Shown piece by piece: positions 1-64,000 of a stretch of DNA of 64,000 nt. The number at the start of each line of letters is the position of its first letter. Within the stretch, counting starts at the first letter, position 1. Where the stretch lies: the IMG/VR virus record IMGVR_UViG_3300024344_003081, one strand, 5' to 3'. The notes beneath the pieces are model-generated. The model saw only the letters and a list, made by a program, of their open reading frames with translations. It made no database searches and had not been told where the DNA came from. Both the position numbers and the translations under genes were made by a program. This DNA comes from a virus (taxonomy: Duplodnaviria > Caudoviricetes).

Positions 1-928
1 TAAAATAATATGGTCCGCCATTATCTACTAATGATCCGCTTGGAGTATATGTTCTTGTATAGACTCCTCCAGAAGGCCCACTTAATGAGTTAGTGTAACT
101 ATTATATATTTTATCGTAAAAAGTTCCTCTATTTGTTCCTGAATTTGTTGTTGATACATTATACAATAAATGTCTTCTATAAAGTACTTGTAAATAAACA
201 TCATTTACCAATTTATTAGTGGAAGCATTTGTACTTGATTCTAATTGTATTTCAGAATTGGTGCTGTCCCATCTAATATAATTATCAGGAGATGAGGGTT
301 CAGTTGTATTTGCAGTTTTTAGATATAATTTATAAGTTGCATTTGTTGCACCATAGTATGTGTCAGTAAACCATGTTCCCTTATCGGACCAAGTTCCTCC
401 TCCTGGATCAGATGTTGCCACTCTATAAGTTCCCACTTCATCACCAGAAAGCATTTGAGTAAGACAATGAGTTGCGAGAGTGTCTAGTAAGTCTGCTTCA
501 ACTATTGGTCCCATTTTTAAATCTGGAGAAGTCCAATACAATAATCCTGTGGCATTTATATCGGTATCATTGATACTTCCTGGATGATTGTTTGATGTAT
601 TTTGGTAAAATGTAGATGTTGAATTAGCTAAAGTTGTTTGATCACTACTGAAGTTTGTGTCTGGTTCTGCTCCACTGCTAGGAGAATTATCATCAGGTTC
701 TGTGTGAGATCCTTGAGCCCGTACCCCATTAATAGCCGTTCCTATAGTTACATCATCAGCACCGTTTGGTTGAGAAAGTCCCACATGTCCTGGAGTGGTA
801 TTAGTAGAATCTAAAAGGGCCGCATATCTTTTTCTTAGAAAATAGCTAAGAACTTCTAATTCAGAATCAGAAAACATTCTGAGATCGGCATTTCCTGAAT
901 CCCAGTATAAGTGTCTATATTGTGTCAT
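1..928 (-). CDS. Putative virion structural protein, partial (runs off window start; absent from ORF track)
   Basis: ATG at 928 gives MTQYRHLYWDSGNADLRMFSDSELEVLSYFLRKRY..., open to position 1 (...GGPYYF); Thr/Ser/Gly-rich; TATAAATA late promoter upstream on the same strand. Confidence 0.6.
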   Translation of the reverse strand, partial: MTQYRHLYWDSGNADLRMFSDSELEVLSYFLRKRYAALLDSTNTTPGHVGLSQPNGADDVTIGTAINGVRAQGSHTEPDDNSPSSGAEPDTNFSSDQTTLANSTSTFYQNTSNNHPGSINDTDINATGLLYWTSPDLKMGPIVEADLLDTLATHCLTQMLSGDEVGTYRVATSDPGGGTWSDKGTWFTDTYYGATNATYKLYLKTANTTEPSSPDNYIRWDSTNSEIQLESSTNASTNKLVNDVYLQVLYRRHLLYNVSTTNSGTNRGTFYDKIYNSYTNSLSGPSGGVYTRTYTPSGSLVDNGGPYYF

Positions 929-938
929 AAATAGTCCA

Positions 939-967
939 TTGACAAGTGGTTCAAAATAGTGTAAACT
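939..967 (+). promoter_or_regulatory. Sigma70-type early/middle promoter for the glycosyltransferase-gp33-gp59-gp32 run
   Basis: TTGACA (939-944), 17-nt spacer, TAAACT (962-967). Confidence 0.55.
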
Positions 968-998
968 ATATAATTGTATATCTTGTTTATATTATATG

Positions 999-1006
999 TA
1001 TTTATA
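999..1006 (-). promoter_or_regulatory. T4-type late promoter TATAAATA
   Basis: TATTTATA on + strand, about 70 nt upstream of the minus-strand ATG at 928. Confidence 0.6.
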
Positions 1007-1024
1007 TTTATTTAGTCATCAAAA

Positions 1025-3691
1025 GTGCTTATGAAAATCCTATATATTACTCCTCACCTATCTACAGGTGGTGCCCCACAGTATCTTCTTAAAAAAATAG
1101 AATTCTTACATAGTGACAATGATATTTATGTCATCGAATATAATGATTATGGTATCTATAGAGTTCAAAAAGATAAAATATTAAACATTTTAAATGACCG
1201 ATTAATAACTTTGTCTGAAGACAAAACTGATATACTGAAATATTTAGATGAAATAAAACCCCATATTGTTCACTTTGAGGAGATGCCTGAATTTTTTGTG
1301 GACGATGAAATAGCAGAACAAATTTATCAAAAAGAAAGAAGATATTTAATTTTTGAAACTTCTCATGATTCTTCATTCAATCCTGATGAAAAAAGATTTT
1401 TACCAGATAAATTTTTATTCTGTAGTGATAATCAATTAATAAAATTTAGATCATTAGATGTTCCTGCATGTGTTATAGAATATCCTGTTGATAAAAAAGT
1501 AGAAGAGAAACGAAGAGATGTTGCTTTAAGAGAATTAGGAGTTGATCCTGCCTTGAAGCACGTATTGAATGTTGGATTATGGACATCTAGAAAAAATCAA
1601 GCAGAAATTATTGAATATGCCAAACTTTTACCTGATGTACAATTTCATTTTGTAGGGAATCTTGCAGAAAATTTCAAAGAATATTGGGAACCCCTAACAA
1701 AAGATTTGCCTGATAATTGTATCGTTTGGGGAGAACGAGAAGATGTAGACAGATTTTATTCATGTATGGATTTATTTTTATTTGCTTCAAGGGGGAATGA
1801 ACACGATAAAGAAACGAATCCATTAGTATTAAAAGAAGCATTATCTTGGAAGATACCTGTTTTAGCACATAAACTTGATTCATATCTTGACAAATATAAT
1901 GATAAAGTTACTTGGCTTTCTGATAATGTTGAAATTAATACAATTAAAATATGCAGAATGTTGAATATAAGTGATCGAATTGTAAATTGTTCCATTGATG
2001 AAACTAAAGTAACTTTACACTTCACGAATTTTTATGAATGTTTTCATGAAAAATTATTATGTATCTATGAAATAGATACTGAATTGTTGGCGTATAGATC
2101 CCATATTATATGCAATTCGATGTGGGCTCAACCGCATTGTGGTAAAGATGTTACAAATGGATTTATAGTAAAAATATATGATGCTCCTAAAAATTATTTT
2201 TCGAATATAAATGATGAAAATTTAGTAGATGATCATCATCTTTTATTCGAAAAAACGTTTTCATGGAAAAATGAAGTAGATATTGCAGTTCTTGGTGAAA
2301 GAAAAAAATTTCATGGAATACCAGATGATCCCTCTTCTTGGTATACTCTTTATGAAACGTTAATATTAAAATATTATAATAAATTAAATTTAATAGAAGG
2401 CGATACTGTAATTGATATTGGAGGTCACTATGGATTTTTTACTATGTACGCCTTAAACAAAGGTGCTTCTCAGGTTCATACAATTGAACCCACAAAAACA
2501 ACTTTTGATGTTTTATGTAAAAATTTAAAAGATTATGATAATGTTAAAAAATATAATTTAGCAATTTCTTCTGATAATGAAAGTAGAGAACTTATTGCTA
2601 TTGGTTCTAGTTCATGTAATTCTTTTCATGAAAACTTTAATAATAGTCCAGACAATAAAGAAAATTTAGGAATAAGAAAAAAACAAGTTGTTAATTGTGT
2701 TACACTTGAACAATTTATGAAAAATAATAATATTGATAGAATAGATGCATTGAAATTAGATTGTGAAGGAGCAGAATGGGATATGTTACCAGCAATTAGT
2801 GATGATTTTTTTAAGTATAAGATAAGAAAACTTTCTATGGAAGCACATCCAGATGGTGTGGGTCAAGAAGGAATGAAAAATAGGGCAATTGAATTTATAG
2901 AACGATTAGAGGGTTTAAATTATCATGTCATTGCTGATTCTCAAATAACATCAAATGGAGAATTGGGTAATTTATGGGCATCAAGAAAACCAAAAATAAA
3001 AATAGTTCATATGCTTGTTGATCCTGATGGAGAAAGAGAAAAAGAATCGATAAGACATCTTACAAAATTATCTGAATATTCGAACTGGAAATATGAACAA
3101 ATAATAAATCCCTTATATAAAGATTTTCCACCAAAAGAAACATGTGCTAGACCAGAATCTGTCCAAATGAAGCCAGGAGAATATAAATTAACTCCTGCAC
3201 ATTATGGTAATTATTCTGCTCATAAAGATGCTATAAACAAACATTTAAATGATGAATTTGATGCGATTTTATTTTGTGAATGTGATGCTATTTTTATAAA
3301 ACCGGTTCATGTGGTTTATAGAGAAATTATGGATAGATTAGATGATATAAATCAATATGATTTGTATTATATGTCTTTTGGAAAAAGAATTCCTGATTGG
3401 GAACACGAAGACTATGAATATTTTGGTGTGACGAATAGAATGTCTGAAGCACATTGTTATTTACTGCCCACAGATAAAAAGAGAAAATTATATTTTAGAA
3501 AGAAATTAAAAGACACGAAGTGGGATACATATGATTTATGGTTGAATAACAATATATTTCCAGATAAGAAATGTGGCATAGTTAAATCTCCTATTTCAAT
3601 TCAATGTTCAGGTGAGTCATATCTAGACAAATCTTTTAAAGATGGAACTACTTTATTAACTGATGAAGAACTAACACATGAAACGTTTTAA
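1025..3691 (+). CDS. Multidomain GT4 glycosyltransferase / FkbM-family methyltransferase / GT-A (GT25-like) fusion
   Basis: N-terminal KILYITPHLSTGGAPQY and ETNPLVLKE (E-x7-E) GT-B motifs; VIDIGGHYG SAM motif and LKLDCEGAE FkbM motif; C-terminal LFCECDAIF acidic GT-A motif. Start may be ATG 1031. Confidence 0.85.
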   Translation: MLMKILYITPHLSTGGAPQYLLKKIEFLHSDNDIYVIEYNDYGIYRVQKDKILNILNDRLITLSEDKTDILKYLDEIKPHIVHFEEMPEFFVDDEIAEQIYQKERRYLIFETSHDSSFNPDEKRFLPDKFLFCSDNQLIKFRSLDVPACVIEYPVDKKVEEKRRDVALRELGVDPALKHVLNVGLWTSRKNQAEIIEYAKLLPDVQFHFVGNLAENFKEYWEPLTKDLPDNCIVWGEREDVDRFYSCMDLFLFASRGNEHDKETNPLVLKEALSWKIPVLAHKLDSYLDKYNDKVTWLSDNVEINTIKICRMLNISDRIVNCSIDETKVTLHFTNFYECFHEKLLCIYEIDTELLAYRSHIICNSMWAQPHCGKDVTNGFIVKIYDAPKNYFSNINDENLVDDHHLLFEKTFSWKNEVDIAVLGERKKFHGIPDDPSSWYTLYETLILKYYNKLNLIEGDTVIDIGGHYGFFTMYALNKGASQVHTIEPTKTTFDVLCKNLKDYDNVKKYNLAISSDNESRELIAIGSSSCNSFHENFNNSPDNKENLGIRKKQVVNCVTLEQFMKNNNIDRIDALKLDCEGAEWDMLPAISDDFFKYKIRKLSMEAHPDGVGQEGMKNRAIEFIERLEGLNYHVIADSQITSNGELGNLWASRKPKIKIVHMLVDPDGEREKESIRHLTKLSEYSNWKYEQIINPLYKDFPPKETCARPESVQMKPGEYKLTPAHYGNYSAHKDAINKHLNDEFDAILFCECDAIFIKPVHVVYREIMDRLDDINQYDLYYMSFGKRIPDWEHEDYEYFGVTNRMSEAHCYLLPTDKKRKLYFRKKLKDTKWDTYDLWLNNNIFPDKKCGIVKSPISIQCSGESYLDKSFKDGTTLLTDEELTHETF

Positions 3692-6600
3692 ATTATCTCT
3701 TGTAACTTCTTGTTACAATGCTGAGTCTTATTTGGAAGAGTTAGCGAATTCTGTTTTTTATCAAAATTATGATCATTGGGAATGGATTCTTGCTGATGAT
3801 TTTTCTGTTGATAATACTCGTACATTAATGGAAGAATTAAAAAGAAAAGATTCTAGAATAAGAATTGTAGAACCCAAACATAAAAAAGAAATTTGGTGGA
3901 ATCCACAACTTCATGCTGTTGGTGAAATAGTATGTCATTTAGATGCTGATGATGCAATTTTACCTGGAACATTTGATAAAATAATACATTATTTTAATTT
4001 ATTTCCAGAAGCAGTTTTACTTCATTTTAATGCAAACAAATATTTTAATACCCTACCCCAAAATACAACTAATCTCTTTGATAATTTTAAAGACAATGTA
4101 TACATGACAAGAGATAACAATTCTTTTTTAGAAGGATTTGAAAAGTTGTGGCCCCAACGAACAAATATTTTTGGATATTTAAGAATATTTAAAAATTTAC
4201 CAGGATTGCATTTTCCAGAACATAAAGATGATGATGCTTGTTTATCAAATGATGGACAATGGCTTTTACATTTAGAAAGATATGGAAAATGGTTAACTAT
4301 TCCTAGAACATCATATCTTGCAAGAGAACACGGTGAATGTGAAAACTTTAGAAACTGGAATCCTCGTGGAGAAGCACAATTAGTAATAAATGAAAAAAGA
4401 GATAGAAATAATTTTATTTTAGAATATCCAAGAAATATTAAATATTTTGATGATATCTATGATTTAGCAGAATCTACTTATTTGAGCAAATTGAATTATG
4501 AAACAGAAAGAAAAAATGTAAGTTTTTTAAATTTTAATTATGGTGAAGAACAACGAACAAAAGTAAAACAATTATTTTTTGATCATGATATAGTTTTTGA
4601 AAAGTATCTAGACAATATTTCTTATTATTTTGTTAAAATAAATTTAGAAGATACATCAGATACAATAAGAACAATTATATCTAAATTACCTGTAGCAAAT
4701 TTTGAATTAAGTTTTTTTTCAGATAATGTGCATTTACATCAAAATAATCGTACACAATCAGACAATATTGAAAATATAAAAGAGACTATTACATCAGATG
4801 GTCGAAGTGTTTTTTGGTATGCACAAGATAATCGAATACAATTTATTTCTGCTGTTCAACAAATAAAAGATGTTTCTGATATTGTTTTATCTACAGGAAA
4901 TGCATATGTTTTAGAAAGAAAAAAAGAAAGAGAAGAAGAAAATAATAATTTAAAAATAATGCAAGTACATATTGGTTGTGGGCTTGATATTCCACCCAAA
5001 GGATATGGGGGATTAGAAGAAGTCATGTATCAATATATGAGAGTAGCAAAGGGTAGAGGACATGAAGTAGAGTTAAAATGGTTAGATGATATAACGCAAA
5101 GTGATTTAGAAAAATATGATGTATTTCATAATCATACTGGTGGATTTTATGATTTATTGAGAGATAGATGTATACCTTATATTTTTACAATGCATGATGC
5201 TTTTGTGAAAATACATGGAAAAGATTCTCATTTTTATATGACTAATAATGAGACTATAAAAAATTCTTTATTCAGTTTAATTCCAACTGAAGATATGATA
5301 GATTTTTTTCTATATCCAGATAAGTTAAGAAGATTGCATCATGGTGTAGATACGAATTTTTATTTTCCTGTAAAAAACAAAAATGATGTACGATTGATTT
5401 GCGTGGGTGGAGGAGATGATAGAAAAGGATTTCATTTAGCAGTTCAGGCGGCAAAAACATTAGGACTTCCTATAACGATTGTTGGACCAGATTCAATACA
5501 TGCAGTATATAATAAAACTTTTTATGATATTGTAGAAGAATGTAAAAATCATATTGATATAACTCTTACAGGTAATGTAGAAAAATATGAATTAAGAAAT
5601 ATATTAAATGAACATCATATAATGATTCATCCAGCATCATTAGAAACAGGGCAACCCTGTCTTGCAGTTCTTGAAGCAATGGCGTGTGGATTACCTGTAG
5701 TTGGAACAATGCAAGATAAAATTTCTTTGAAAGGATTTGAATTATGTACTAGAGAAGTTGATGATATTGTAAATAAGGTTAAACTTGTTTTAAATGACTA
5801 TGATGAATATTCAAAGAAAGCAAGAGAATTTGCTAAAGAAAGAGATTGGGAAAATATTTTTGATGAATTGGAAAAATATTATTATGAAGCAAAAGAATTA
5901 AAATATACTAAGCCATTTGATATGAAAGATAGATTGTTATTTGCGTATCAAAATACAGATGCAGATGGTAAAAATATTTTCGATTTAAATATGCAAAAAA
6001 ATCCTTATTTGGCTGTTAAAGGATCTATTCCTGGAAATTATAAAATTAATTTTATTGATAGAGATACGGGTGGGGTTCATTATTCAAATGATGTTTCTGC
6101 GGGTGGCTGGGTTGCTTGTGGTATTGATTATTATGTTAATTGGAGAGTTGAAGCAATAAATGTTCAAACAGAAGAAATAGAATTTGAATATGAACAAGAT
6201 TTTACAAATAAAAATATTTTTGTTTGGTTTGATTCAGTAGCATTGGGAGATACTTTAGCTTGGGTACCAGTTGTTGAAGCATTTCGCAAGAAACATAAAT
6301 GTAAAATGTATTGTAGTACATTTTGGAACGATTTAGTATCTGAATCATACCCAGAAATAACCTTTATAACCCCTGAATCTGGATTTAATGATTTTGTATC
6401 TTCTTATCGAATAGGTTTTTTTGAAGAAAGTCTTCAATCTCCAGTAGATATGAAAAATGTTTCGTTACAGAAATTATGTGCAGGTATTCTTGGTTTTAAA
6501 GATTTTGAAGAAACAAAATGTGAAATAATAGTTAAAGAAAGAGAGGAAGATCCACAATTAATTCGAAAGCCTTATGTGTGCATTGGTATGCAATCAACTG

Positions 6601-7091
6601 CTCAAGCAAAATATTGGAATTATCCAGGAGGATGGGATGAGGTGGTTGACTTTTTATCCAAAAAGGGATATAATATAGTATGTATAGATAAACACCATTC
6701 TTTTGGACAAGGAGAATATTTTAATAAATCACCAAAAAATGTGATAGGAAGACATGAACGAACTTTAGATCAAACAATTGCTACTTTAAATGGTGCTGAA
6801 TTTTTTATTGGATTGGGTTCTGGTTTATCGTGGTTGGCGTGGTCTTTAAATAAATATGTAGTAATGATATCGGGATTTAGTAATCCTATATCTGAATTCT
6901 CTTCAAAATGTTTTAGAATCCATAATGATACAGTTTGTAATAGTTGTTATAATCGGCATAAATTTGATCCCGGTGATTGGTTGTGGTGTCCAGATCATAA
7001 AAATACTGACAGAATGTTTGAATGCACAAAAAACATTGAACCAGTAAAAGTTTGTGATGCTATTGAAGAAGTAATAAAACTAATAGACTAA
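3678..7091 (+). CDS. Multidomain GT2 / GT4 / Aah-TibC-type (autotransporter O-heptosyltransferase-like) glycosyltransferase
   Basis: GT2 start (LSLVTSCYNAE, ILADDFS, HLDADD); GT4 (GYGGLE, LEAMACGLPVV); C-terminal ALGDTLAW, STAQAKYWN, FIGLGSGLSWLAW, ISGFS and CNSC...WCP...FEC four-Cys cluster. Confidence 0.85.
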   Translation: MKRFKLSLVTSCYNAESYLEELANSVFYQNYDHWEWILADDFSVDNTRTLMEELKRKDSRIRIVEPKHKKEIWWNPQLHAVGEIVCHLDADDAILPGTFDKIIHYFNLFPEAVLLHFNANKYFNTLPQNTTNLFDNFKDNVYMTRDNNSFLEGFEKLWPQRTNIFGYLRIFKNLPGLHFPEHKDDDACLSNDGQWLLHLERYGKWLTIPRTSYLAREHGECENFRNWNPRGEAQLVINEKRDRNNFILEYPRNIKYFDDIYDLAESTYLSKLNYETERKNVSFLNFNYGEEQRTKVKQLFFDHDIVFEKYLDNISYYFVKINLEDTSDTIRTIISKLPVANFELSFFSDNVHLHQNNRTQSDNIENIKETITSDGRSVFWYAQDNRIQFISAVQQIKDVSDIVLSTGNAYVLERKKEREEENNNLKIMQVHIGCGLDIPPKGYGGLEEVMYQYMRVAKGRGHEVELKWLDDITQSDLEKYDVFHNHTGGFYDLLRDRCIPYIFTMHDAFVKIHGKDSHFYMTNNETIKNSLFSLIPTEDMIDFFLYPDKLRRLHHGVDTNFYFPVKNKNDVRLICVGGGDDRKGFHLAVQAAKTLGLPITIVGPDSIHAVYNKTFYDIVEECKNHIDITLTGNVEKYELRNILNEHHIMIHPASLETGQPCLAVLEAMACGLPVVGTMQDKISLKGFELCTREVDDIVNKVKLVLNDYDEYSKKAREFAKERDWENIFDELEKYYYEAKELKYTKPFDMKDRLLFAYQNTDADGKNIFDLNMQKNPYLAVKGSIPGNYKINFIDRDTGGVHYSNDVSAGGWVACGIDYYVNWRVEAINVQTEEIEFEYEQDFTNKNIFVWFDSVALGDTLAWVPVVEAFRKKHKCKMYCSTFWNDLVSESYPEITFITPESGFNDFVSSYRIGFFEESLQSPVDMKNVSLQKLCAGILGFKDFEETKCEIIVKEREEDPQLIRKPYVCIGMQSTAQAKYWNYPGGWDEVVDFLSKKGYNIVCIDKHHSFGQGEYFNKSPKNVIGRHERTLDQTIATLNGAEFFIGLGSGLSWLAWSLNKYVVMISGFSNPISEFSSKCFRIHNDTVCNSCYNRHKFDPGDWLWCPDHKNTDRMFECTKNIEPVKVCDAIEEVIKLID

Positions 7092-10748: not shown

Positions 10749-10937
10749 TTAGGCCCTTCTTTCTTGATCTTTTTGTTTACTATTTTCTTGTTCTATATGA
10801 GCAATTAGCATTTCTACGTATATGTCTCTTTCAAAAGGCATTAAATTTTCTATTTCTGTTAAACTATATTTATGATGTTGCATCAATTGAAACGTTAGTT
10901 GATAATAGTTTGCTAAAGTATTATGACTACACATCAT
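10749..10937 (-). CDS. gp51: gp51-like baseplate hub assembly catalyst (short form); probable T segment of a frameshift product
   Basis: YYQLTFQLMQHHKYSLTEIENLMPFERDIY motif; ATG overlaps the gp26 TGA. Confidence 0.85.
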   Translation of the reverse strand: MMCSHNTLANYYQLTFQLMQHHKYSLTEIENLMPFERDIYVEMLIAHIEQENSKQKDQERRA

Positions 10938-11677
10938 AAAAAAAAATCGCCAATTCCATTCAAAGTTTGTTTTTCATGACATTTACATTTAGAACATGTA
11001 AATTCAATATCGTGTAATATAGCAGGCATTGTGCCAAAAAACAGTTTAAGTTTTTCAAATTGATCACTTGATAAACTACTAATAAATTCTTCCAGTTCTT
11101 CTTTATTATATTCACCTGCATTAAATACTTCTTCACCAGAATATATGTTATCAATACAATCAATAACAATACTAAACAATTCTGCTACAGTTGAAGTTTT
11201 TTCATTTTCCATGTCTGCTAAACGATTATAAACTTCCATTGTTGGATATTTCATTTCAACAGTAATTGTATCTGTTAATTTAATGTTCTTAGAATGTTTA
11301 TCGTTTGTAGTAAGTTTTATATCAGCAAGATTTATTTTTACTTTTGTTTGAGCATCACAAGATTCCCCATTACTATTTGTTTCTTCTCGATGTTTTATCA
11401 TTAGTTCAACAACTTCACCAACAGATTTTGCTCTTATATTTAATAATGCCATCTGTAAATCAAATAATGGTAATTCTTCAGCATTTACTTCTTCTGATAA
11501 AATACAATTATTGATTATTTGTTTTGAAGTTCTTACTATTTCATCTTGTTCTCCCCCCTCCATAGCCATCAATAAAAGTTTCTCTTCTTTGACTAGAAAG
11601 GGTCTGTAAGTTACTGGTTTTTTTATTGAAGTCAAGTTCATTGTAAATGTAGGTGCTTCAATTTTGGGTAAACTCAT
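10934..11677 (-). CDS. gp26: gp26-like baseplate hub/tail assembly chaperone
   Basis: LPKI, YRPFLVKEEKLLLMA, IRAKSVGE, MKYP, CSKC and GIGDFF terminal motifs. Confidence 0.9.
   Translation of the reverse strand: MSLPKIEAPTFTMNLTSIKKPVTYRPFLVKEEKLLLMAMEGGEQDEIVRTSKQIINNCILSEEVNAEELPLFDLQMALLNIRAKSVGEVVELMIKHREETNSNGESCDAQTKVKINLADIKLTTNDKHSKNIKLTDTITVEMKYPTMEVYNRLADMENEKTSTVAELFSIVIDCIDNIYSGEEVFNAGEYNKEELEEFISSLSSDQFEKLKLFFGTMPAILHDIEFTCSKCKCHEKQTLNGIGDFFL
10938..10946 (-). promoter_or_regulatory. Candidate -1 ribosomal slippery site (U9) at the gp26/gp51 junction
   Basis: Minus strand GAT TTT TTT TTA TGA; the -1 frame reads TTT TTT TTT ATG ATG TGT into gp51. Confidence 0.65.
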
Positions 11678-56459: not shown

Positions 56460-59400
56460 ATGAAAGACGATCAAAAAGAACCACAAGACTTAGATTTAAG
56501 TAAAGTTTTAGCTACTGCTCTTGCTTATACTAAAAAAACACTTAAAAAGACTAAAGAAGAACTTGTTGTAGGCATAAAAGAAATTTTAGATCCTGTAACT
56601 GGTGAAAAAGTCAGAGTTCTTGAAATCAAAGGTACAGAAGGTTCCAAGGGCGAAAAAGGTGAAAAGGGAGAGCAAGGAGAGATTGGTCCCGTTGGTGAAC
56701 GAGGGGAAGACGGGAGAATTGGGCCTCAAGGTGTTCAAGGACCTCAGGGAGAGCAGGGAGAAACTGGACCCGAGGGACCCGAGGGAGAAAAGGGCGATCC
56801 TGGTGATGATGCTGAAGTAACTAGACTTGAAATTGAAATAGAAGGCATCAAAAAAGTTGTTAAAGAAGTTAGTTCAAAAGCAACCCAAACTGCACAAAAA
56901 GTAGCAGGAGGAAGCGGTTGGGGTGAAGGCGGCGGTGGAGGAGGAGCTTCTGGAATACACGGAACACATGGAACTTCTGGATCTGCGGGTTCATCTGGCG
57001 AAACTCATGGTACTTCTGGATCTTCTGGAGTTGATGGAACGTTTTTAGGCACTCATGGTACTTCTGGCTCTGCAGGAAGTTCTGGAGGAACAGGAAGTCA
57101 TGGTACTTCTGGCTCTGCAGGATCATCTGGATCTGCTGGTTCGTCTGGCTCATCTGGGTCTACAGGAACTTCTGGATCATCTGGTTTAACATATGCTTCA
57201 TCTGGATCTTCTGGAACTGCAGGAACATCTGGTCGTGATGGCGGTTCTTATATTCATATTCAATCTTCAGCCCAACCTGTTTGGTTAATAAATCATAATT
57301 TAAATACTAGACCAATAAACATATTAGTAGTAGATAGTGATTACAATGTAATTTATCCTGAATCTGTTCAATTTATTGATTCCAATACTGTAAAAATAAT
57401 CTGGCCTTCCTCTCAAGCAGGATTTGCTTCAATCACTTTTGGTGAAGCCTCTTCTGGTACTTCAGGAACATCTGGATTAACATATGCTTCTTCTGGTTCT
57501 GCTGGCTCTGCAGGAAGTGCTGGATCTACTGGTTCTGCAGGAAGTTCGGGAAGTGCTGGAAGTGCAGGAAGTTCGGGATCGTCTGGTCGTGATGCTTCTT
57601 CTGGATCATCTGGTTCTTCTGGAACATCTGGAACATCTGGAGTAGATGGTGAACAAGGAGATACGGGAGAAGGAGGAACTTCTGGTTCGTCAGGAACTAC
57701 TGGAACGCATGGAAGTTCTGGTTCTTCGGGAACAGATGGGACATCAGGAACATCTGGATCAGATGGAACTGAAGGAGATACAGGACCTCAAGGAACTGGA
57801 GGAACATCTGGCTCTGCAGGAAGTTCGGGAAGTGCTGGATCGTCTGGTTCATCTGGAGAAGATGGAACTTCGGGATCGTCTGGTTCATCTGGAGAAGATG
57901 GAACTTCTGGATCTTCTGGATCGTCTGGTTCTGCAGGAAGTTCTGGAACTTCTGGAACTGCTGGTACAAGTGGAACTTCTGGAACTGCTGGATCATCTGG
58001 TATAGATGGTGGTTTTGGAGGAGCTTCATTTTCATATCGTTACAATACTACACAAGGTACGGATGATCCAGGAACAGGGAAAATAGCATTTACTCTAACT
58101 TCTGGTACTTTTACAACTCCTGATCAAGCTAATAGATTAAGAATAAGTGATACTGATCAAGACGGAACAATAATTGATAGTTTTTTACAAACAATTAATG
58201 ATGTTGCTTTTAGTGATCCTAAAGGACATTTACGAATTTATGATAAAGATGATCCAGATGAATTTATGTTATATGGTATCAATGAATTTGATACTGTAAA
58301 TCCTTCATGGTATTATGTAAAAGTTACATATTTAGATTCCTCATTAACTGATTTTCAAAACGCAACTGAACTTGTTGCAACATTTGCAAGAACTGGTGAT
58401 TCTGGAACTTCTGGATCTGCTGGTTCATCTGGATCTGCGGGTAGTGCTGGATCCGCTGGTTCTGCTGGAAGTGCTGGCTCTGCAGGGAGTGCGGGTTCTG
58501 CAGGAACTGCTGGTTCTGCTGGTTCATCTGGATCCGCTGGATCTTCTGGATTGACATATGCTTCTTCTGGATCTGCTGGATCGTCTGGATTGACATTTGC
58601 TTCATCTGGATCATCTGGAGGAACAGGAAGTCATGGAACTTCTGGAACTACTGGAACTTCTGGCTCTGCTGGAAGTACTGGTTCTGCAGGTTCTGCAGGT
58701 AGTGCTGGATCTTCTGGACAAGATGGTGGTTCTTATATTCATAATCAAGAGTCAGCGGCATCCGTTTGGTTAATAAATCATCATCTAGGTGTTAGACCTT
58801 TAAATACTACAGTTGTAAATACTGATTATGATGTAATTTATCCAGAATCGATTAGATTTACAGACTCACGTACTGTTAAATTAGTTTTTACATCTGCAGT
58901 AGCGGGTTGGTGTGCATTAACTTTTGGAGAAGGCTCTTCTGGAACTTCTGGTTCTTCTGGAACTTCTGGATCGTCTGGTTCTGCAGGATCTGCTGGTTCT
59001 GCTGGTTCTGCAGGATCGTCTGGATCGTCTGGTTCTGCAGGAAGTGCAGGTAGTGCTGGATCATCTGGATGGACTTATGCTTCTTCTGGATCGTCTGGTT
59101 CTGCAGGAAGTGCTGGCTCTGCTGGAAGTGCTGGATCTGCTGGTTCTGCTGGAAGTGCAGGAAGTTCGGGAAGTGCTGGATCGTCTGGCTCTGCAGGAAG
59201 TTCGGGAAGTGCTGGATCTGCTGGTTCCGCTGGTTCTGCAGGGAGTGCTGGTTCATCTGGATCTGCAGGAAGCTCTGGATCTTCTGGTACTTCTGGATCT
59301 TCTGGTTCATCTGGCTCTGCAGGAAGTGCTGGCTCTGCTGGAAGTGCTGGCTCTGCAGGATCATCTGGATCTGCTGGTTCATCTGGCTCTGCAGGATCAT

Positions 59401-61499
59401 CTGGATCTGCTGGTTCATCTGGCTCTGCAGGAAGTGCTGGAAGTGCTGGCTCTACAGGAAGTTCGGGAAGTGCTGGATCATCTGGTCGTGATGGTGTTTT
59501 TGGAGGAGCGGCTTTTGAATATGATTTTTCAAATACAGCATTTGTAGGAGCTACAAGTGATCCTGGTGCGGGTAAACTTAACGTAGGATTCGATAATGGA
59601 TCTATTACTTTAGAGGATGATACTGGAAGTTTTATTTTAGAAACAGAGTCGGATCTTTTATTAGAGGGAGGTTCTACACCTACTGATTTTTCTACAGTTA
59701 ACAGAATTTCTATAAGCGAAACTGATGTAAATGGAACATCAACTGAAAGTTTTTTAAGTCAAGTTCAAACAGCAACATCTGCAATTAAAGGTCATGTAAG
59801 AATTCATCGAAAAACATATTCTGACCAATATGCAATGTTTACCATTCATTATGTTACTAATAATACAGATTTTCAAGAAATAGAAGTTACAAAAGTTGGT
59901 GGTGAAAATGCATTTTTTGCTAATGATGAAGACATAGTTGTTACATTTGCAAGAACTGGTGATGCTGGAACATCTGGAACATCTGGATCATCTGGATTAA
60001 CTTATGCTTCTTCTGGAAGTGCTGGCTCTGCAGGAAGTGCAGGAAGTTCTGGAACTGCAGGATCGTCTGGTCGTGATGGGGGTTCTTTTACTCATGAACA
60101 ATCTTCAGCGGCATCTGTTTGGTTAATAAATCATACTTTAACAAAAAGAGTTATAAATGTTCAAGTTTGTGATGATGATTATAATGTAATTTATCCAGAA
60201 TCTATTCAATTTACGGATTCAAATAATATAAAAATAGTATTTCCTACTGCAATAGCAGGATGGGCTACAGTAACGTTTGGAGAATCAACTTCTGGTACTT
60301 CTGGAACTGCAGGATCATCTGGAATAACTTATGCTTCTTCTGGATCGTCTGGTTCTGCAGGAAGTGCTGGCTCTGCTGGAAGTGCTGGATCTGCTGGTTC
60401 TGCTGGAAGTGCAGGAAGTTCGGGAAGTGCTGGCTCTGCAGGAAGTGCTGGTTCATCTGGCTCTGCAGGAAGTGCTGGAAGTGCTGGAAGTGCAGGAAGT
60501 GCTGGCTCTTCTGGTTCTGCAGGAAGTGCTGGATCCGCAGGAACTTCTGGAACTGCAGGAACTTCTGGACTAGATGGTAATTTTGGAGGAGCATCTTTTG
60601 AATATGATTTTGAAAATACAACATTTACAGGTGCATCAAGCGATCCAGGTTCTGGTAAACTTGAAGTAGGTATTGATACTGGATCTGCACCAACTGATTT
60701 CTCTACAGTTAACAGAATTTCTATAAGCGAATTAGATGTAAATGGTACATCAACTGAGAGTTTTCTAGATCAAGTTGATGGTGCAACATCTGCAATTAAA
60801 GGTCATGTAAGAATTCATAAAAGATTTAATAGTGATCAATATGTAATATTTACAATTTCAGATGTTACTAATAATACAGATTTTCAAGAAATAGAAGTTT
60901 CAAAGATCGGAGGACAAACTGCATTATTTTCCGATGATGAAGATATAGTTGTTACATTTGCAAGAACTGGTGATGCTGGAACATCTGGAACTGCTGGAAC
61001 TTCAGGAACTGCAGGAACTTCTGCTTCTGCTGGTTCTGCAGGAAGTGCTGGATCATCTGGCTCTGCAGGAACTTCTGGAACTACTGGTTCTTCAGGAAGT
61101 GCAGGAAGTTCGGGAAGTGCTGGATCGTCTGGCTCTGCAGGAACTGCAGGATCCTCTGGATTTTTAAATCTAAATAATTCTGCAGAAGATCGTTTAATTT
61201 CTATTAATGCTGATACTGAATCTGGTGATGGAGAAACAAATTTAACATTTGATGGAAATGAATTAAATGTAACTGGTAAAACTTTTTTGGTGGGTACAAG
61301 TGGAACAACTGGTTATATTCAAATGTCTCAAAGAGATGATGTTTCAGGAAATAAACCTACTTTGACTGCAGGTCAATCTGCAGTTTTTTCAAGTTCTTCG
61401 GGAGCAGGAGGAACAGGAATATATTTTAAACAAGGAACTGATGATCCCGATGAATTGGTTTCACGCAAAAAAGCAATAACTTATGGATTAATATTCTAA
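56460..61499 (+). CDS. Giant collagen-like / Gly-Ser-Ala triplet-repeat fibre protein with alternating globular modules A and B
   Basis: About 20 canonical G-X-Y collagen triplets, a short coiled coil, then hundreds of residues of G-S-A/G-S-S/G-T-S separating three A modules (H.Q.S...W.I.H.L..RP) and three B modules (F.Y...DPG.G...KGH.RI...TFARTGD); ends DELVSRKKAITYGLIF. Confidence 0.85.
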   Translation: MKDDQKEPQDLDLSKVLATALAYTKKTLKKTKEELVVGIKEILDPVTGEKVRVLEIKGTEGSKGEKGEKGEQGEIGPVGERGEDGRIGPQGVQGPQGEQGETGPEGPEGEKGDPGDDAEVTRLEIEIEGIKKVVKEVSSKATQTAQKVAGGSGWGEGGGGGGASGIHGTHGTSGSAGSSGETHGTSGSSGVDGTFLGTHGTSGSAGSSGGTGSHGTSGSAGSSGSAGSSGSSGSTGTSGSSGLTYASSGSSGTAGTSGRDGGSYIHIQSSAQPVWLINHNLNTRPINILVVDSDYNVIYPESVQFIDSNTVKIIWPSSQAGFASITFGEASSGTSGTSGLTYASSGSAGSAGSAGSTGSAGSSGSAGSAGSSGSSGRDASSGSSGSSGTSGTSGVDGEQGDTGEGGTSGSSGTTGTHGSSGSSGTDGTSGTSGSDGTEGDTGPQGTGGTSGSAGSSGSAGSSGSSGEDGTSGSSGSSGEDGTSGSSGSSGSAGSSGTSGTAGTSGTSGTAGSSGIDGGFGGASFSYRYNTTQGTDDPGTGKIAFTLTSGTFTTPDQANRLRISDTDQDGTIIDSFLQTINDVAFSDPKGHLRIYDKDDPDEFMLYGINEFDTVNPSWYYVKVTYLDSSLTDFQNATELVATFARTGDSGTSGSAGSSGSAGSAGSAGSAGSAGSAGSAGSAGTAGSAGSSGSAGSSGLTYASSGSAGSSGLTFASSGSSGGTGSHGTSGTTGTSGSAGSTGSAGSAGSAGSSGQDGGSYIHNQESAASVWLINHHLGVRPLNTTVVNTDYDVIYPESIRFTDSRTVKLVFTSAVAGWCALTFGEGSSGTSGSSGTSGSSGSAGSAGSAGSAGSSGSSGSAGSAGSAGSSGWTYASSGSSGSAGSAGSAGSAGSAGSAGSAGSSGSAGSSGSAGSSGSAGSAGSAGSAGSAGSSGSAGSSGSSGTSGSSGSSGSAGSAGSAGSAGSAGSSGSAGSSGSAGSSGSAGSSGSAGSAGSAGSTGSSGSAGSSGRDGVFGGAAFEYDFSNTAFVGATSDPGAGKLNVGFDNGSITLEDDTGSFILETESDLLLEGGSTPTDFSTVNRISISETDVNGTSTESFLSQVQTATSAIKGHVRIHRKTYSDQYAMFTIHYVTNNTDFQEIEVTKVGGENAFFANDEDIVVTFARTGDAGTSGTSGSSGLTYASSGSAGSAGSAGSSGTAGSSGRDGGSFTHEQSSAASVWLINHTLTKRVINVQVCDDDYNVIYPESIQFTDSNNIKIVFPTAIAGWATVTFGESTSGTSGTAGSSGITYASSGSSGSAGSAGSAGSAGSAGSAGSAGSSGSAGSAGSAGSSGSAGSAGSAGSAGSAGSSGSAGSAGSAGTSGTAGTSGLDGNFGGASFEYDFENTTFTGASSDPGSGKLEVGIDTGSAPTDFSTVNRISISELDVNGTSTESFLDQVDGATSAIKGHVRIHKRFNSDQYVIFTISDVTNNTDFQEIEVSKIGGQTALFSDDEDIVVTFARTGDAGTSGTAGTSGTAGTSASAGSAGSAGSSGSAGTSGTTGSSGSAGSSGSAGSSGSAGTAGSSGFLNLNNSAEDRLISINADTESGDGETNLTFDGNELNVTGKTFLVGTSGTTGYIQMSQRDDVSGNKPTLTAGQSAVFSSSSGAGGTGIYFKQGTDDPDELVSRKKAITYGLIF

Positions 61500-61824: not shown

Positions 61825-64000
61825 ATGGCACTATTTCTTAAAGGCGAATACGCAGATTATAGTTTAAAAGAGAAAACAACTTCTGGTTCCGCTGGCTCTG
61901 CTGGATCTGCGGGGAGTGCTGGATCTGCAGGTTCTGCTGGTTCTGCAGGATCGTCTGGATTGACATATGCTTCATCTGGAAGCTCTGGCTCTGCGGGTTC
62001 TGCAGGGAGTGCTGGATCTTCTGGACAAGATGGTAGTTCTTTTGTTCATACTCAATCTTCAGCTTCACTTGTCTGGTTGATAACTCATGGTTTAGGAACT
62101 AGACCAGTAAATATAGAAGTTGTTGATGATAATTATAATGTTATTATACCAGAATCTATTCAATTTATTGATGGAAATAATGTAAAAATAGTATTTACTT
62201 CTTCACAAGCAGGATATGCCGCCATAACTTATGGACAGGGTTCTTCTGGAACTTCTGGTTCTGCAGGAACTTCTGGTTCTTCGGGAATGGGTGGAACTGC
62301 TGGATCATCTGGATCTACTGGTTCTACAGGAAGTGCTGGCTCTGCAGGATCATCTGGCTCTGCGGGAAGTGCAGGAAGTTCTGGGAGTGCTGGTTCTTCT
62401 GGTTCTGCAGGAACTTCTGGAACTACTGGAACTTCTGGAACTGCAGGAACATCTGGACAAGATGGAAATTTTGGTGGTCAATCTTTTGAATATGATTTTG
62501 AAAATACAACATTTACAGGCGCCGCAAGTGATCCAGGTTCTGGTAAACTTGTAGTAGGAATTGATACTGGATCTGCACCTACAGATTTTTCTACAGTTGA
62601 TAGAATTTCTATGAGTGAAGCTGATGTAAATGGTACATCAACTGAAAGTTTTCTAGATCAAGTTGATGGTGCAACATCCGCAATTAAAGGACATGTAAGA
62701 ATATCGAAAAAATTTGATACAAGTACGTATGTAATGTTTACTATCTCGGATGTTACTAATGATTCGGGTTTTCAAGAAATAGAAGTTTCGAAAATAGGAG
62801 GACAAACTGCATTATTTGATGATGATGAAGACATAATTGTTACATTTGCAAGAACTGGTGATGCTGGAACTTCTGGAACATCTGGTTCTTCAGGAAGTGC
62901 TGGTTCTGCAGGATCATCTGGCTCTGCGGGAAGTGCTGGCTCATCTGGATCCGCTGGCTCTGCGGGAAGTGCGGGTAGTGCTGGAAGTGCTGGTTCTGCT
63001 GGAAGTGCTGGCTCTGCAGGAAGTGCTGGTTCTTCGGGGGCAGGAGGAACACACGGAACTGCAGGTAGTGCTGGATCTGCTGGTTCATCTGGATCTGCAG
63101 GAAGTGCTGGCTCTGCGGGTTCTGCAGGAAGTGCTGGATCTTCTGGACAAGATGGCGGATCTTATATTCATACTCAATCTTCAGCTTCACTTGTCTGGTT
63201 TATACCTTATAATTTAAATACTAGGCCTGTAAATATAGAAGTTGTTGATGATAATTATAATGTAATTTATCCAGAATCTATTCAATATATTGATTCAAAT
63301 AATGTAAAAATAGTATTTCCTACTACTCAAGCAGGATATGCGGCGGTAACTTTTGGTGAAGGATCGTCTGGATCATCTGGTTCGTCTGGATTGACTTATG
63401 CTTCATCTGGATCATCTGGTACTTCTGGATCATCTGGGAGTGCTGGTTCTTCAGGAAGTGCTGGATCTGCTGGTTCCGCTGGCTCATCTGGATCCGCTGG
63501 CTCTGCAGGAAGTGCTGGTTCATCTGGCTCTGCAGGAAGTGCTGGAAGTGCTGGAAGTGCAGGAAGTGCTGGCTCTGCAGGAAGTGCTGGCTCTGCTGGT
63601 TCTGCGGGCTCTTCTGGATACACTTATGCTTCATCTGGTTCATCTGGCTCTGCGGGAAGTGCTGGTTCTGCAGGATCATCTGGTTCGTCAGGAACTACTG
63701 GAACTTCTGGAACATCTGGTTCTTCAGGAAGTGCTGGTTCTGCAGGATCATCTGGCTCTGCGGGAAGTGCTGGTTCTGCTGGATCCGCTGGCTCTGCAGG
63801 AAGTGCTGGAAGTGCTGGTTCATCTGGTTCTGCTGGTTCTTCAGGAAGTGCTGGAAGTGCAGGAAGTGCTGGCTCTACAGGAAGTGCTGGATCCGCTGGC
63901 TCTGCAGGGAGTGCTGGATCATCCGGTCGTGATGGTGGATCTTACATTCATACACAATCTACACCTGCAATTGTTTGGTTAATACCTTATAATTTAGGAA
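61825..64000 (+). CDS. Second Gly-Ser-Ala repeat fibre protein, partial (runs off window end; absent from ORF track)
   Basis: ATG 61825 [27 protein letters not shown]..., open to 64000; modules A, B, A and the start of another A. Confidence 0.85.

What the first reader, a model, noticed from the sequence alone, without database searches (positions are those of the whole stretch)
5970..7091. Intact Aah/TibC-type (iron-binding) protein heptosyltransferase domain fused behind GT2 and GT4 domains in a phage
The last ~370 aa show the family layout as I recall it: an N-terminal beta-barrel (FDLN..YKINFIDRDTG..GWV...YYVNWRV), the catalytic LGD motif (about 6243), the STAQAKYW and GLGSGLSWLAW motifs, and four Cys (CNSC about 6936, WCP, FEC) that match the Fe site. 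Bacterial members are stand-alone oligomers next to their autotransporter; here it is the third domain of a triple-GT fusion with no autotransporter in the window.
Basis: partly seen in the sequence, partly recalled or inferred. Interest (0 to 1): 0.75.

Follow-up and report, generated by a model that had tools for sequence, protein, structure and literature searches.

The report
Phage TibC-like protein sugar transferase
A marine T4-like phage carries an intact relative of the bacterial enzymes that attach heptose sugars to adhesins, fused to two other sugar transferases; it most likely sugar-coats the phage's own serine-rich collagen-like fibres, which no experiment has yet tested.

Summary
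Residues 765-1137 of the 1137-aa ORF at 3678-7091 score 316 bits on TIGR04414 (cut-off 200). They match TibC in the PDB at E 4e-66, and the model (pLDDT 94) superposes on TibC at TM 0.88, against 0.43-0.56 for LPS heptosyltransferases. The catalytic Asp, Thr/Lys/Trp donor contacts and all four iron-finger Cys are kept. The adenine-contacting Arg-286 is Thr.

Fusions are common in this family, and at least 574 IMG/VR contigs encode a TibC-like domain, usually inside structural modules.

The enzyme associates with proline-free Gly-Ser/Thr collagen-like fibre genes. Such a gene lies within 10 kb in 31 of 81 TibC-bearing viral loci. TibC-like genes occur in 12 of 44 viral records chosen for such repeats and in 0 of 41 chosen for Gly-Pro-x repeats (p = 2e-4). 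This window has two such fibre genes (56460-61499 and 61825 onward).

Best reading: the domain starts O-glycosylation of virion fibres, probably with ADP-heptose, and the fused and neighbouring transferases extend the glycan. Donor, acceptor and iron binding are inferred, not shown. I found no paper on this. The same scan has reached this reading on other DNA (42 notes, at least 32 genomes).

The parts
939..967 (+). sigma-70-like promoter match (TTGACA-17-TAAACT) in the only intergenic gap before the two transferase genes
   Evidence: It is a consensus match only, and the count in the region is not above shuffles. No T4 late-promoter TATAAATA lies on the + strand before 33905. The one at 999-1006 is on the - strand and faces ORF 2..928.
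1025..3691 (+). It overlaps the next gene by 14 nt.
   Evidence: Pfam PF00534 38.6 bits (aa 176-292) and PF05050 56.6 bits (aa 464-617). It is homologous end to end (32% identity, E 1e-121) to the 885-aa protein that precedes the TibC-like gene in an unrelated myovirus lineage, L029.
3678..7091 (+). 1137-aa four-module protein: GT2, small alpha/beta domain, GT4, TibC/Aah-like domain
   Evidence: The full-length AF2 model (pLDDT 75.7, pTM 0.42) shows folded modules separated by low-confidence linkers at aa 395-421 and 761-763. The same architecture occurs in dozens of marine metagenome clusters at 57-89% identity.
3678..4487 (+). GT2 (GT-A fold) module, about aa 1-270, with acidic motifs D40-D41 and D89/D91/D92
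   Evidence: PF00535 60.2 bits. D40, D41, D91 and D92 are invariant in 15 homologues. Codons checked.
4515..4853 (+). small alpha/beta module (aa 280-392) with no family match
   Evidence: Secondary structure of the full-length model; no Pfam hit.
4953..5957 (+). GT4 (GT-B fold) module, aa 426-760
   Evidence: PF00534 51 bits and PF13692 42 bits. It is homologous (34% identity, E 3e-47) to the separate 316-aa GT4 gene that sits directly before the TibC-like gene in L029.
5970..7091 (+). TibC/Aah-like (BAHT-type) protein O-glycosyltransferase module, aa 765-1137, plus stop codon
   Evidence: TIGR04414 315.8-319.4 bits against a cut-off of 200. TibC in the PDB at E 4e-66. AF2 pLDDT 94.1, pTM 0.91. 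Foldseek TM 0.88 to 4rb4/4rap.
5976..6230 (+). N-terminal flattened beta-barrel of the TibC-like module (aa 767-851, eight strands)
   Evidence: DSSP of the model. The Foldseek alignment spans 378 columns of the 380-residue TibC chain. Pfam TibC_1st scores 18.9 bits, below its cut-off of 27.
6249..6251 (+). Asp858, equivalent to the TibC catalytic base Asp-110
   Evidence: It aligns with position 110 of the D110A crystal form 4rb4. Its role is described in PMC4358343. It is Asp in 82 of 82 viral homologues.
6597..6833 (+). Donor-site residues: Thr974 (6597), Lys978 (6609), Thr1033 (6774, in place of TibC Arg-286), Gly1047 (6816, in place of TibC Pro-300) and Trp1052 (6831)
   Evidence: Across 82 viral homologues the counts are: Thr/Ser 82, Lys 81, Trp 82. 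The Arg-286 position is R 36, V 19, T 17, other 10. The Pro-300 position is G 69, S 12, A 1.
6936..7025 (+). Cys4 'iron-finger' insertion: C1087, C1090, C1104, C1116, equivalent to TibC Cys-339/342/358/370
   Evidence: Each Cys is kept in 81 of 82 viral homologues and is invariant in 15 fused homologues. Metal binding itself was not tested.
56460..61499 (+). 1679-aa collagen-like fibre protein, the candidate acceptor. It is 21% Ser and 21% Gly, with 735 residues in G-X-Y runs where X is mostly Ser/Thr and Y mostly Ala/Ser, interrupted by repeated globular domains.
   Evidence: Pfam Collagen 285 bits in 11 stretches; sequence; composition.
61825..64000 (+). second collagen-like fibre gene of the same kind, running off the window (26% Ser)
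   Evidence: Pfam Collagen 175 bits.

Best explanation
Shown: the last 373 residues of ORF 3678-7091 are an intact homologue of the TibC/Aah protein O-heptosyltransferases. They have the beta-barrel, the GT-B catalytic core, the catalytic Asp, the beta-phosphate and sugar contacts, and the Cys4 finger. This module is the last part of a conserved phage cassette. The cassette is a GT4-methyltransferase protein, a GT4, and a TibC-like module. It is split into three genes in some phages and partly fused here, with an extra GT2.

Inferred: the TibC-like module puts the first sugar on Ser/Thr hydroxyls of the phage's own proline-free Gly-Ser-Ala/Gly-Ser-Ser collagen-like fibre proteins (56460-61499 and 61825 onward). 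The donor is most likely heptose from host-made ADP-heptose. The GT4 and GT2 modules and the neighbouring 888-aa protein then extend and methylate the glycan. The genes appear to be transcribed early with gp59 and gp32, so the enzymes would be present before the late fibre proteins are made.

My estimates: homology with TibC/Aah about 0.95; a protein acceptor about 0.8; collagen-like virion fibres as that acceptor about 0.55; ADP-heptose as donor about 0.5.
For: Family and fold. Functional residues are kept here and in 81-82 of 82 viral homologues.

Structural-module context in other phages: the TibC-like gene lies about 330 bp upstream of the tail sheath gene in 33 loci, and upstream of terminase and portal in another lineage.

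Cassette conservation, split versus fused.

Association with Ser/Thr collagen-like genes:
- 31 of 81 TibC-bearing viral loci have one within 10 kb. This covers 10 of 23 clusters of the TibC domain at 60% identity.
- Several are directly adjacent: L065 at +33 bp, L036 at +47 bp, L075 at +95 bp.
- L029 has an 1863-aa collagen-like fibre with a Peptidase_S74 chaperone end.
- Reverse test: 12 of 44 viral records picked for G-[S/T-type]-[S/T-type] x8 repeats carry a TIGR04414 match, against 0 of 41 picked for G-P-x x8 repeats. Fisher p = 2.2e-4. At an equal per-base rate 6.3 control hits would be expected.
- Among T4-like relatives, G001:C1 and G089 have both features and G090 and G091 have neither.

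Donor: in one phage lineage an RfaE-domain-II-like adenylyltransferase (91 bits) and an RfaE-domain-I-like kinase (102 bits) lie directly after the TibC-like gene. That lineage has Val at the Arg-286 position. Pelagimyophages are reported to carry rfaE (PMC7029224).
Against: No experiment exists. The acceptor link rests on gene co-occurrence.
- In this window the fibre genes lie about 50 kb from the enzyme gene.
- Within one sheath-anchored lineage the association is positive but not significant (4 of 9 against 2 of 16, p = 0.14).
- The G-P-x control phages may differ in host and habitat, which could inflate the contrast.
- Mel-JY01, the one cultured phage with a homologue, has no strict Gly-Ser/Thr run.
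- Known TibC/Aah acceptors are Ser residues in beta-helix strand-loop-strand motifs, not collagen-like triplets.
- Arg-286, which contacts adenine in TibC and whose Ala mutant abolished or largely diminished heptosylation, is Thr here.
- No heptose-pathway gene was found on the 161-kb contig of the closest relative. Only 3 of 45 TibC-bearing viral records have an RfaE-II-like gene.
- The host is unknown, so supply of ADP-heptose is unverified.
Confidence: 0.55

Rival explanations
1. The enzyme modifies host envelope proteins or the host O-chain/LPS during infection, to mask receptors and block superinfection. This is the usual reading of glycosyltransferases in pelagimyophages and cyanomyophages.
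For: PMC7029224 interprets the many glycosyltransferases and rfaE of pelagimyophages this way. The genes have an early-type promoter match and sit with early/middle genes gp59 and gp32. They also adjoin a large sugar-tailoring island noted by others (not tested here).
Against: In other phage lineages the same cassette is embedded in the structural module next to fibre and sheath genes. The TibC family acts on proteins in the cytoplasm before export. The association with Ser/Thr collagen-like genes is not predicted by this reading.
Confidence: 0.2
2. The acceptor is another virion protein, such as the tail sheath, baseplate appendages or Ig-like proteins, rather than the collagen-like fibres. 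The co-occurrence with collagen-like genes would then reflect shared residence in variable host-recognition regions.
For: The sheath gene is the immediate downstream neighbour in 33 loci, as substrates are in aah-aidA and tibC-tibA. Mel-JY01 has the enzyme but no Gly-Ser/Thr run. Mycobacteriophage virion glycosylation targets capsid and tail-tube proteins (my own knowledge; the paper's title phrase is cited in papers listed).
Against: In this window the sheath gene is 44 kb away. The G-P-x collagen control (0 of 41) shows the link is to Ser/Thr-rich repeats specifically, not to fibre genes in general.
Confidence: 0.12
3. The TibC-like module transfers a sugar to a glycan or lipid intermediate rather than to protein, acting as one step among five transferase domains.
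For: It is fused to other transferases. The adenine-contacting Arg is replaced. The wider family is experimentally unexplored.
Against: The features that set TibC apart from LPS heptosyltransferases are all retained under selection. These are the beta-barrel and the Cys4 finger, which the TibC paper implicates in TibA substrate recognition.
Confidence: 0.08
4. The module is a decayed, inactive remnant.
For: None beyond the Arg-286 substitution.
Against: The frame is intact and every other functional residue is kept. These residues are invariant across homologues down to 41% identity. The model is of high confidence.
Confidence: 0.02

Closest known systems
TibC (ETEC H10407) and Aah/AAH (DAEC): bacterial autotransporter heptosyltransferases, BAHT family, TIGR04414, PDB 4RAP/4RB4 (PMC4358343)
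   Same: 33-34% identity over the whole enzyme. Same beta-barrel, GT-B core and Cys4-finger architecture (TM 0.88). The catalytic Asp, Thr/Lys beta-phosphate contacts, sugar-contacting Trp and all four Cys are kept.
   Different: It is the C-terminal module of a 1137-aa multi-transferase protein in a phage, with no autotransporter partner. The Arg-286 (adenine) position is Thr, and the Pro-300 (TibC) / Ser-294 (Aah) selectivity position is Gly. The likely acceptor is a collagen-like repeat rather than a beta-helix strand-loop-strand motif. Oligomeric state is unknown.
LPS core heptosyltransferases WaaC/WaaF (GT9, PF01075)
   Same: Same GT-B superfamily. A weak Pfam GT9 hit (33 bits) covers the C-lobe. 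ADP-heptose is the expected donor.
   Different: TM is only 0.43-0.56. They have no N-terminal beta-barrel and no Cys4 insertion, and their acceptor is a lipid-linked glycan.
BclA of the Bacillus anthracis exosporium: O-glycosylated collagen-like Gly-Pro-Thr repeats (my own knowledge, not checked here)
   Same: A collagen-like surface filament whose hydroxy-amino acids within the triplets carry O-linked, methyl-branched oligosaccharides.
   Different: The enzymes are unrelated, the repeats contain Pro, the sugars are rhamnose and anthrose, and the filament is bacterial rather than viral.
Mycobacteriophage virion glycosylation (Che8-type phages; my own knowledge, the paper's title phrase is cited in papers listed) and chlorovirus A064R multi-domain capsid glycosyltransferase (my own knowledge)
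   Same: Virus-encoded transferases decorate the virus's own structural proteins. A064R likewise strings two transferase domains and a methyltransferase in one chain.
   Different: The transferase families and the acceptors (capsid and tail tube) differ, and no TibC-type enzyme is involved.

Membership tests
TibC/Aah family (TIGR04414, BAHT) | Score over the curated cut-off of the family model, across its full length | tested here: met
   315.8 bits (domain alone 319.4) against a cut-off of 200, covering model positions 27-374 of 374.
TibC/Aah family (TIGR04414, BAHT) | Flattened N-terminal beta-barrel packed on a GT-B catalytic core | tested here: met
   The AF2 model has eight strands at aa 767-851, followed by two Rossmann-like lobes. 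Foldseek aligns 378 columns to TibC at TM 0.88. Pfam TibC_1st alone is sub-threshold, 18.9 against 27.
TibC/Aah family (TIGR04414, BAHT) | Catalytic base Asp-110 | tested here: met
   Asp858 aligns with position 110. It is Asp in 82 of 82 viral homologues.
TibC/Aah family (TIGR04414, BAHT) | Donor contacts Thr-226, Lys-230 and Trp-305 | tested here: met
   Thr974, Lys978 and Trp1052.
TibC/Aah family (TIGR04414, BAHT) | Adenine-contacting Arg-286 (basis of ADP specificity in TibC) | tested here: not met
   It is Thr1033, and nearly invariant Thr in this phage clade. The position is Arg in only 36 of 82 viral homologues, and it is Val in a lineage with adjacent RfaE-like genes. It is therefore not a family-wide requirement.
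TibC/Aah family (TIGR04414, BAHT) | Four Cys of the 1Fe-0S iron finger | tested here: met
   C1087, C1090, C1104 and C1116 align with Cys-339/342/358/370. This covers the ligands only.
TibC/Aah family (TIGR04414, BAHT) | Bound iron, and ring-shaped dodecamer built through the beta-hairpin thumb and iron finger | not testable with these tools
   This needs ICP-MS and SEC or cryo-EM.
TibC/Aah family (TIGR04414, BAHT) | Acceptor is an autotransporter passenger domain encoded next to the enzyme | tested here: not met
   The window is a T4-like phage. There is no autotransporter among the large ORFs, and the neighbours are transferases, gp59 and gp32. I therefore file this as a homologue and structural member, not as a functional equivalent ('autotransporter heptosyltransferase').
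TibC/Aah family (TIGR04414, BAHT) | ADP-heptose as donor | not testable with these tools
   Indirect evidence only: RfaE-like genes sit beside homologues in one phage lineage. None was found on the closest relative's 161-kb contig.
GT2 (PF00535) and GT4 (PF00534) | Score over Pfam gathering cut-offs; acidic DxD-type motif in the GT2 | tested here: met
   GT2 scores 60.2 against 23.3 and GT4 scores 51.0 against 26.4. D40/D41 and D91/D92 are invariant. The GT4 E-x7-E motif was not checked in detail.
Collagen triple-helix repeat (PF01391), for the candidate acceptors | Long uninterrupted G-X-Y runs | tested here: met
   285 and 175 bits. There are 735 and 396 residues in runs of at least 5 triplets, with Pro below 2%. 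Triple-helix formation without Pro/Hyp is not shown.

The most novel reading that the evidence does not exclude
TibC-like enzymes of phages form a widespread, undescribed virion-glycosylation system. In this reading a branch of the adhesin-heptosylating family has been recruited to O-glycosylate proline-free Gly-Ser/Thr collagen-like fibres. It would draw on the host's LPS precursor ADP-heptose, or on phage RfaE-like enzymes where present. The result would be a sugar-coated fibre that affects host recognition, stability or escape from grazers and enzymes.
Probability: 0.45. Interest if true: 0.8.

Novelty: new variant of a known kind. Interest (0 to 1): 0.62.

Why it matters
TibC and Aah are known only as virulence-associated enzymes that hyperglycosylate E. 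coli-type autotransporter adhesins. This work shows that intact relatives are common in environmental phages, sit in virion modules, and track a peculiar class of serine/threonine-packed, proline-free collagen-like fibres. That points to a second, probably larger, biological role for the family.

It also points to protein glycosylation of phage fibres, so far shown experimentally only for mycobacteriophage capsids and tails. The idea is directly testable: co-express the domain with a fibre fragment and look for +192 Da steps. It would change how the many 'LPS-type' glycosyltransferases in marine phage genomes are interpreted.

Tried and rejected
- Homodimer prediction for the TibC-like module (two copies, alignment A2) returned 'no answer', with score 0.00 against a mark of 0.42. 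I draw nothing from it.
- Pfam TibC_1st alone was below its cut-off. The barrel was confirmed by structure instead.
- A heptose pathway in the phage: the window's assembly is not held. On the nearest relative, GmhA-like and sugar-kinase-like hits lie on other contigs of the MAG and below cut-offs, and none lies on the 161-kb phage contig.
- RfaE-II-like genes were found in only 3 of 45 TibC-bearing viral records. Phage-encoded donor synthesis is therefore the exception.
- Within-lineage co-variation (sheath-anchored loci) points the right way but is not significant, p = 0.14 for Ser/Thr collagen and 0.087 for any collagen.
- A portal-anchored set of relatives was too fragmented for a genome-wide test; only four usable records remained.
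- The Mel-JY01 genome has no run of six Gly-Ser/Thr-type triplets.
- Literature searches for TibC, BAHT or heptosyltransferase in phages found nothing relevant.
- Reading Thr1033 as evidence for a non-ADP donor was rejected. A lineage with adjacent RfaE-like genes also lacks the Arg.
- Reading the Chloroflexota label of the nearest genome as a host clue was rejected as probable mis-binning.
Full report
**What is there.** The finding lies in a single uninterrupted 1137-aa ORF at 3678-7091 on the + strand. Its start overlaps by 14 nt the stop of an 888-aa ORF at 1025-3691. Pfam places a GT2 domain at aa 7-139 (60 bits) and a GT4/Glycos_transf_1 domain at aa 565-721 (51 bits). It also gives a weak GT9 hit at aa 947-1070 (33 bits) and a sub-threshold TibC_1st hit at aa 786-826 (18.9 against 27).

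NCBIfam is decisive. TIGR04414, 'autotransporter strand-loop-strand O-heptosyltransferase', scores 315.8 bits against a cut-off of 200 and covers model positions 27-374 of 374. The LPS heptosyltransferase I model reaches only 28-31 bits. A sequence search of the PDB finds only TibC (4rb4, 4rap) at E 4e-66, aligned over aa 786-1130.

**Fold.** I modelled aa 765-1137 with an alignment of 25 relatives. The model has pLDDT 94.1 and pTM 0.91. It shows eight beta-strands first (aa 767-851) and then two Rossmann-like lobes. Foldseek against the PDB puts all TibC chains on top: E 6e-42, TM 0.88, 378 aligned columns of a 380-residue chain. The next hits are LPS GT9 enzymes at TM 0.43-0.56.

**Functional residues.** The TibC structure paper (PMC4358343) names these residues:
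- Asp-110 as catalytic base.
- Thr-226 and Lys-230 on the beta-phosphate.
- Trp-305 on heptose O4.
- Arg-286 on adenine N1.
- Pro-300 (Ser-294 in AAH) as the D,D versus L,D-heptose selector.
- Cys-339/342/358/370 as ligands of a rubredoxin-like iron.

In the HMMER alignment these correspond to Asp858, Thr974, Lys978, Trp1052, Thr1033, Gly1047 and Cys1087/1090/1104/1116. The Asp, Thr, Lys, Trp and the four Cys are invariant in 15 full-length homologues down to 41% identity. In 82 viral homologues they are kept in 81 or 82 cases each, with Thr or Ser at the Thr-226 position.

The Arg-286 position is the one departure. It is Thr here. Across the viral set it is Arg in 36, Val in 19 and Thr in 17. 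Pro-300 is never Pro (Gly 69, Ser 12, Ala 1).

**Fusion and phage setting are not exceptional.** A word-indexed search restricted to 625-1990-aa proteins found 1636 proteins carrying the domain. Many are fused to GT4, FkbM, Methyltransf_24 or CmcI-type methyltransferases. Dozens have the exact GT2+GT4+TibC-like architecture at 57-89% identity. An exhaustive search of 1.8 billion cluster representatives found 742 clusters at E below 1e-30, and most of the best 150 are longer than 450 aa.

Among the best 80, about 50 are stand-alone (382-428 aa) and about 30 are fused. In the deposited-phage collection only four records match: Microcystis phage Mel-JY01 and three huge-phage genomes. In Mel-JY01 the domain ends a 1226-aa CDS annotated only as 'methyltransferase FkbM'. 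Some JGI-sourced homologues already carry the TIGR04414 name in their annotation. I found no paper discussing the family in phages.

**Context in this phage.** The window is a T4-like myovirus of about 30% G+C. Its portal is about 52% identical to those of cyanomyophages and the Methylophilales phage Melnitz, so the host is unknown. The two transferase genes follow the only intergenic gap, which has a sigma-70-like match at 939-967. They run into a 74-aa ORF, then the gp59 loader and gp32. No late-promoter motif lies on their strand. This suggests early or middle expression but does not prove it.

The nearest held genome is a 'Chloroflexota' MAG. Its 161-kb contig PAAV01000055.1 is clearly a related phage. 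It carries an 1145-aa homologue and the same fibre repeats. I regard the bin label as mis-binning, not as a host clue.

**Context in other phages.** I clustered the ORFs of 80 viral loci. In 33 of them a tail sheath gene lies about 330 bp downstream of the TibC-like gene on the same strand, followed by a conserved ~160-aa ORF (likely the tail tube, not annotated) and a long ORF of 840-950 aa with no family match, possibly the tape measure. Another lineage has terminase and portal downstream. The enzyme is therefore typically a structural-module gene.

In the sheath-adjacent lineage the order is: 1863-aa collagen-like fibre with a Peptidase_S74 chaperone end, a 232-aa ORF, an 885-aa GT4 protein, a 316-aa GT4, the 399-aa TibC-like gene, an 83-aa ORF, then the sheath. 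The 885-aa protein is homologous end to end to this window's 888-aa protein (E 1e-121). The 316-aa GT4 is homologous to the GT4 module fused in the 1137-aa protein (E 3e-47).

The same cassette is thus split there and fused here. Among sheath-anchored relatives the cassette is present or absent as a unit.

**Link to Ser/Thr collagen-like fibres.** This window encodes a 1679-aa protein (56460-61499) and a second, truncated one (61825 onward). They score 285 and 175 bits on Pfam Collagen, are 21-26% Ser and have under 2% Pro.

I tested whether the pairing is general.
- Forward test: 31 of 81 TibC-bearing viral loci have, within 10 kb, a collagen-like ORF with at least 50% Ser/Thr in the X and Y positions. 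This covers 10 of 23 clusters of the TibC domain at 60% identity and 15 of 37 at 70%. Several are immediately adjacent and 2500-3200 aa long.
- Reverse test: I picked viral records by a DNA pattern for eight consecutive G-[WSN]-[WSN] triplets. Of these, 12 of 44 carry a TIGR04414 match, 10 of them over the cut-off. Of records picked by a G-P-x x8 pattern, 0 of 41 do. Fisher p is 2.2e-4. At an equal per-base rate 6.3 control hits would be expected.
- Cellular loci: even among 79 genome-derived (cellular) loci with a TibC-like gene, 10 have such a neighbour.
- T4-like relatives: two records have both features and two have neither.

There are caveats.
- The control phages may differ in host and habitat.
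- Relatedness inflates the counts.
- A within-lineage test is positive but not significant (4 of 9 against 2 of 16, p = 0.14).
- Mel-JY01 has no such repeat.
- In this window the enzyme gene and the fibre genes are about 50 kb apart.

**Donor.** In the terminase-adjacent lineage the TibC-like gene is followed directly by two genes. One is a 148-aa protein whose best match is RfaE domain II, the heptose-1-phosphate adenylyltransferase (91 bits, E 6e-26). The other is a 250-aa protein whose best match is RfaE domain I, the heptose-7-phosphate kinase (102 bits, E 4e-29). The first forms a cluster present in 9 of the 80 loci. That lineage has Val at the Arg-286 position, so loss of the Arg does not argue against ADP-heptose.

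Only 3 of 45 TibC-bearing viral records searched have an RfaE-II-like gene, and the 161-kb relative of this phage has none. Here the donor would therefore have to come from the host. The pelagimyophage survey reports rfaE and many glycosyltransferases in such phages and reads them as host O-chain modification (PMC7029224).

**Whole protein.** The full-length model is of moderate confidence (pLDDT 75.7, pTM 0.42), so domain packing cannot be read from it. It does resolve four folded modules: GT2 (aa 1 to about 270), a small alpha/beta module (280-392), GT4 (426-760) and the TibC-like module (767-1137). Disordered linkers separate them.

**Verdict.** The observation and the core interpretation hold. 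This is an intact TibC/Aah homologue in a phage, fused behind GT2 and GT4 modules. It is a sequence and structural member of the family but not a functional equivalent of an autotransporter heptosyltransferase, because it has no autotransporter partner and one ADP-contact residue differs.

The best-supported mechanism is initiation of O-glycosylation on the phage's own Ser-rich collagen-like fibres. The fused and neighbouring transferase and methyltransferase domains would build out the glycan. Host-surface modification is the main rival.

Other agents of this scan reached the same reading on other DNA: 42 notes in at least 32 genomes. I read those notes only after my own tests. I found nothing in the literature.

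Noticed in passing
L407 / G001:C1 (PAAV01000055.1, 161038 bp): A contig binned in a 'Chloroflexota bacterium NAT137' MAG is a T4-like phage closely related to this window. It has an 1145-aa TibC fusion at about 38.8 kb and Gly-Ser collagen repeats at 90-94 kb. This is probably a mis-binned phage contig, not host evidence.
   Followed up: partly
L402 (Microcystis phage Mel-JY01, PP395634.1:4750-8430): The 1226-aa CDS annotated 'methyltransferase FkbM' ends in a full TibC-like domain (40% identity to the window's). A cytidylyltransferase-like gene and the terminase follow. This is a cultured phage in which the enzyme could be studied.
   Followed up: partly
L018:11092-12226 and L044:11011-11457: Split RfaE-like genes lie directly after the stand-alone TibC-like gene in one viral lineage. 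They are a domain II-like adenylyltransferase of 129-148 aa and a domain I-like kinase of 250 aa. A 1024-aa protein with a cytidylyltransferase-like N-terminus follows.
   Followed up: partly
window 56460-61499: The fibre protein starts with a short classical charged, Pro-containing collagen stretch (aa 58-117). It then switches to Pro-free G-S-A/G-S-S runs that alternate three times with two kinds of conserved globular domain. A Pro-free collagen helix would need some other stabiliser, and glycosylation could serve as one.
   Followed up: no
window 8893-10746 (-): This is a 617-aa Gly/Ala-rich protein with repeated hydrophobic GxxxG-like segments and no Pfam or PHROG hit, in a locally G+C-richer stretch (38%). 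Another note on this genome places the tape measure gene just downstream of 10749-11677, so it is probably the tape measure.
   Followed up: no
window 929-1024: This is a divergent promoter region. A T4 late-promoter motif TATAAATA at 999-1006 on the - strand faces ORF 2..928. A sigma-70-like match at 939-967 on the + strand faces the transferase genes.
   Followed up: partly
P0133 and P0181 (alignment A2): Two stand-alone family members lack the Cys ligands (for example 'PHSGFFN' and 'WNWNP' in place of the Cys motifs). The iron finger has therefore been lost in some branches.
   Followed up: no
L226 and L504 (sheath-anchored viral loci): These close relatives of the cassette-bearing myoviruses lack the whole transferase cassette. 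They carry other 820-894-aa proteins in its place. L226 still has a 1473-aa Ser/Thr collagen-like gene.
   Followed up: partly
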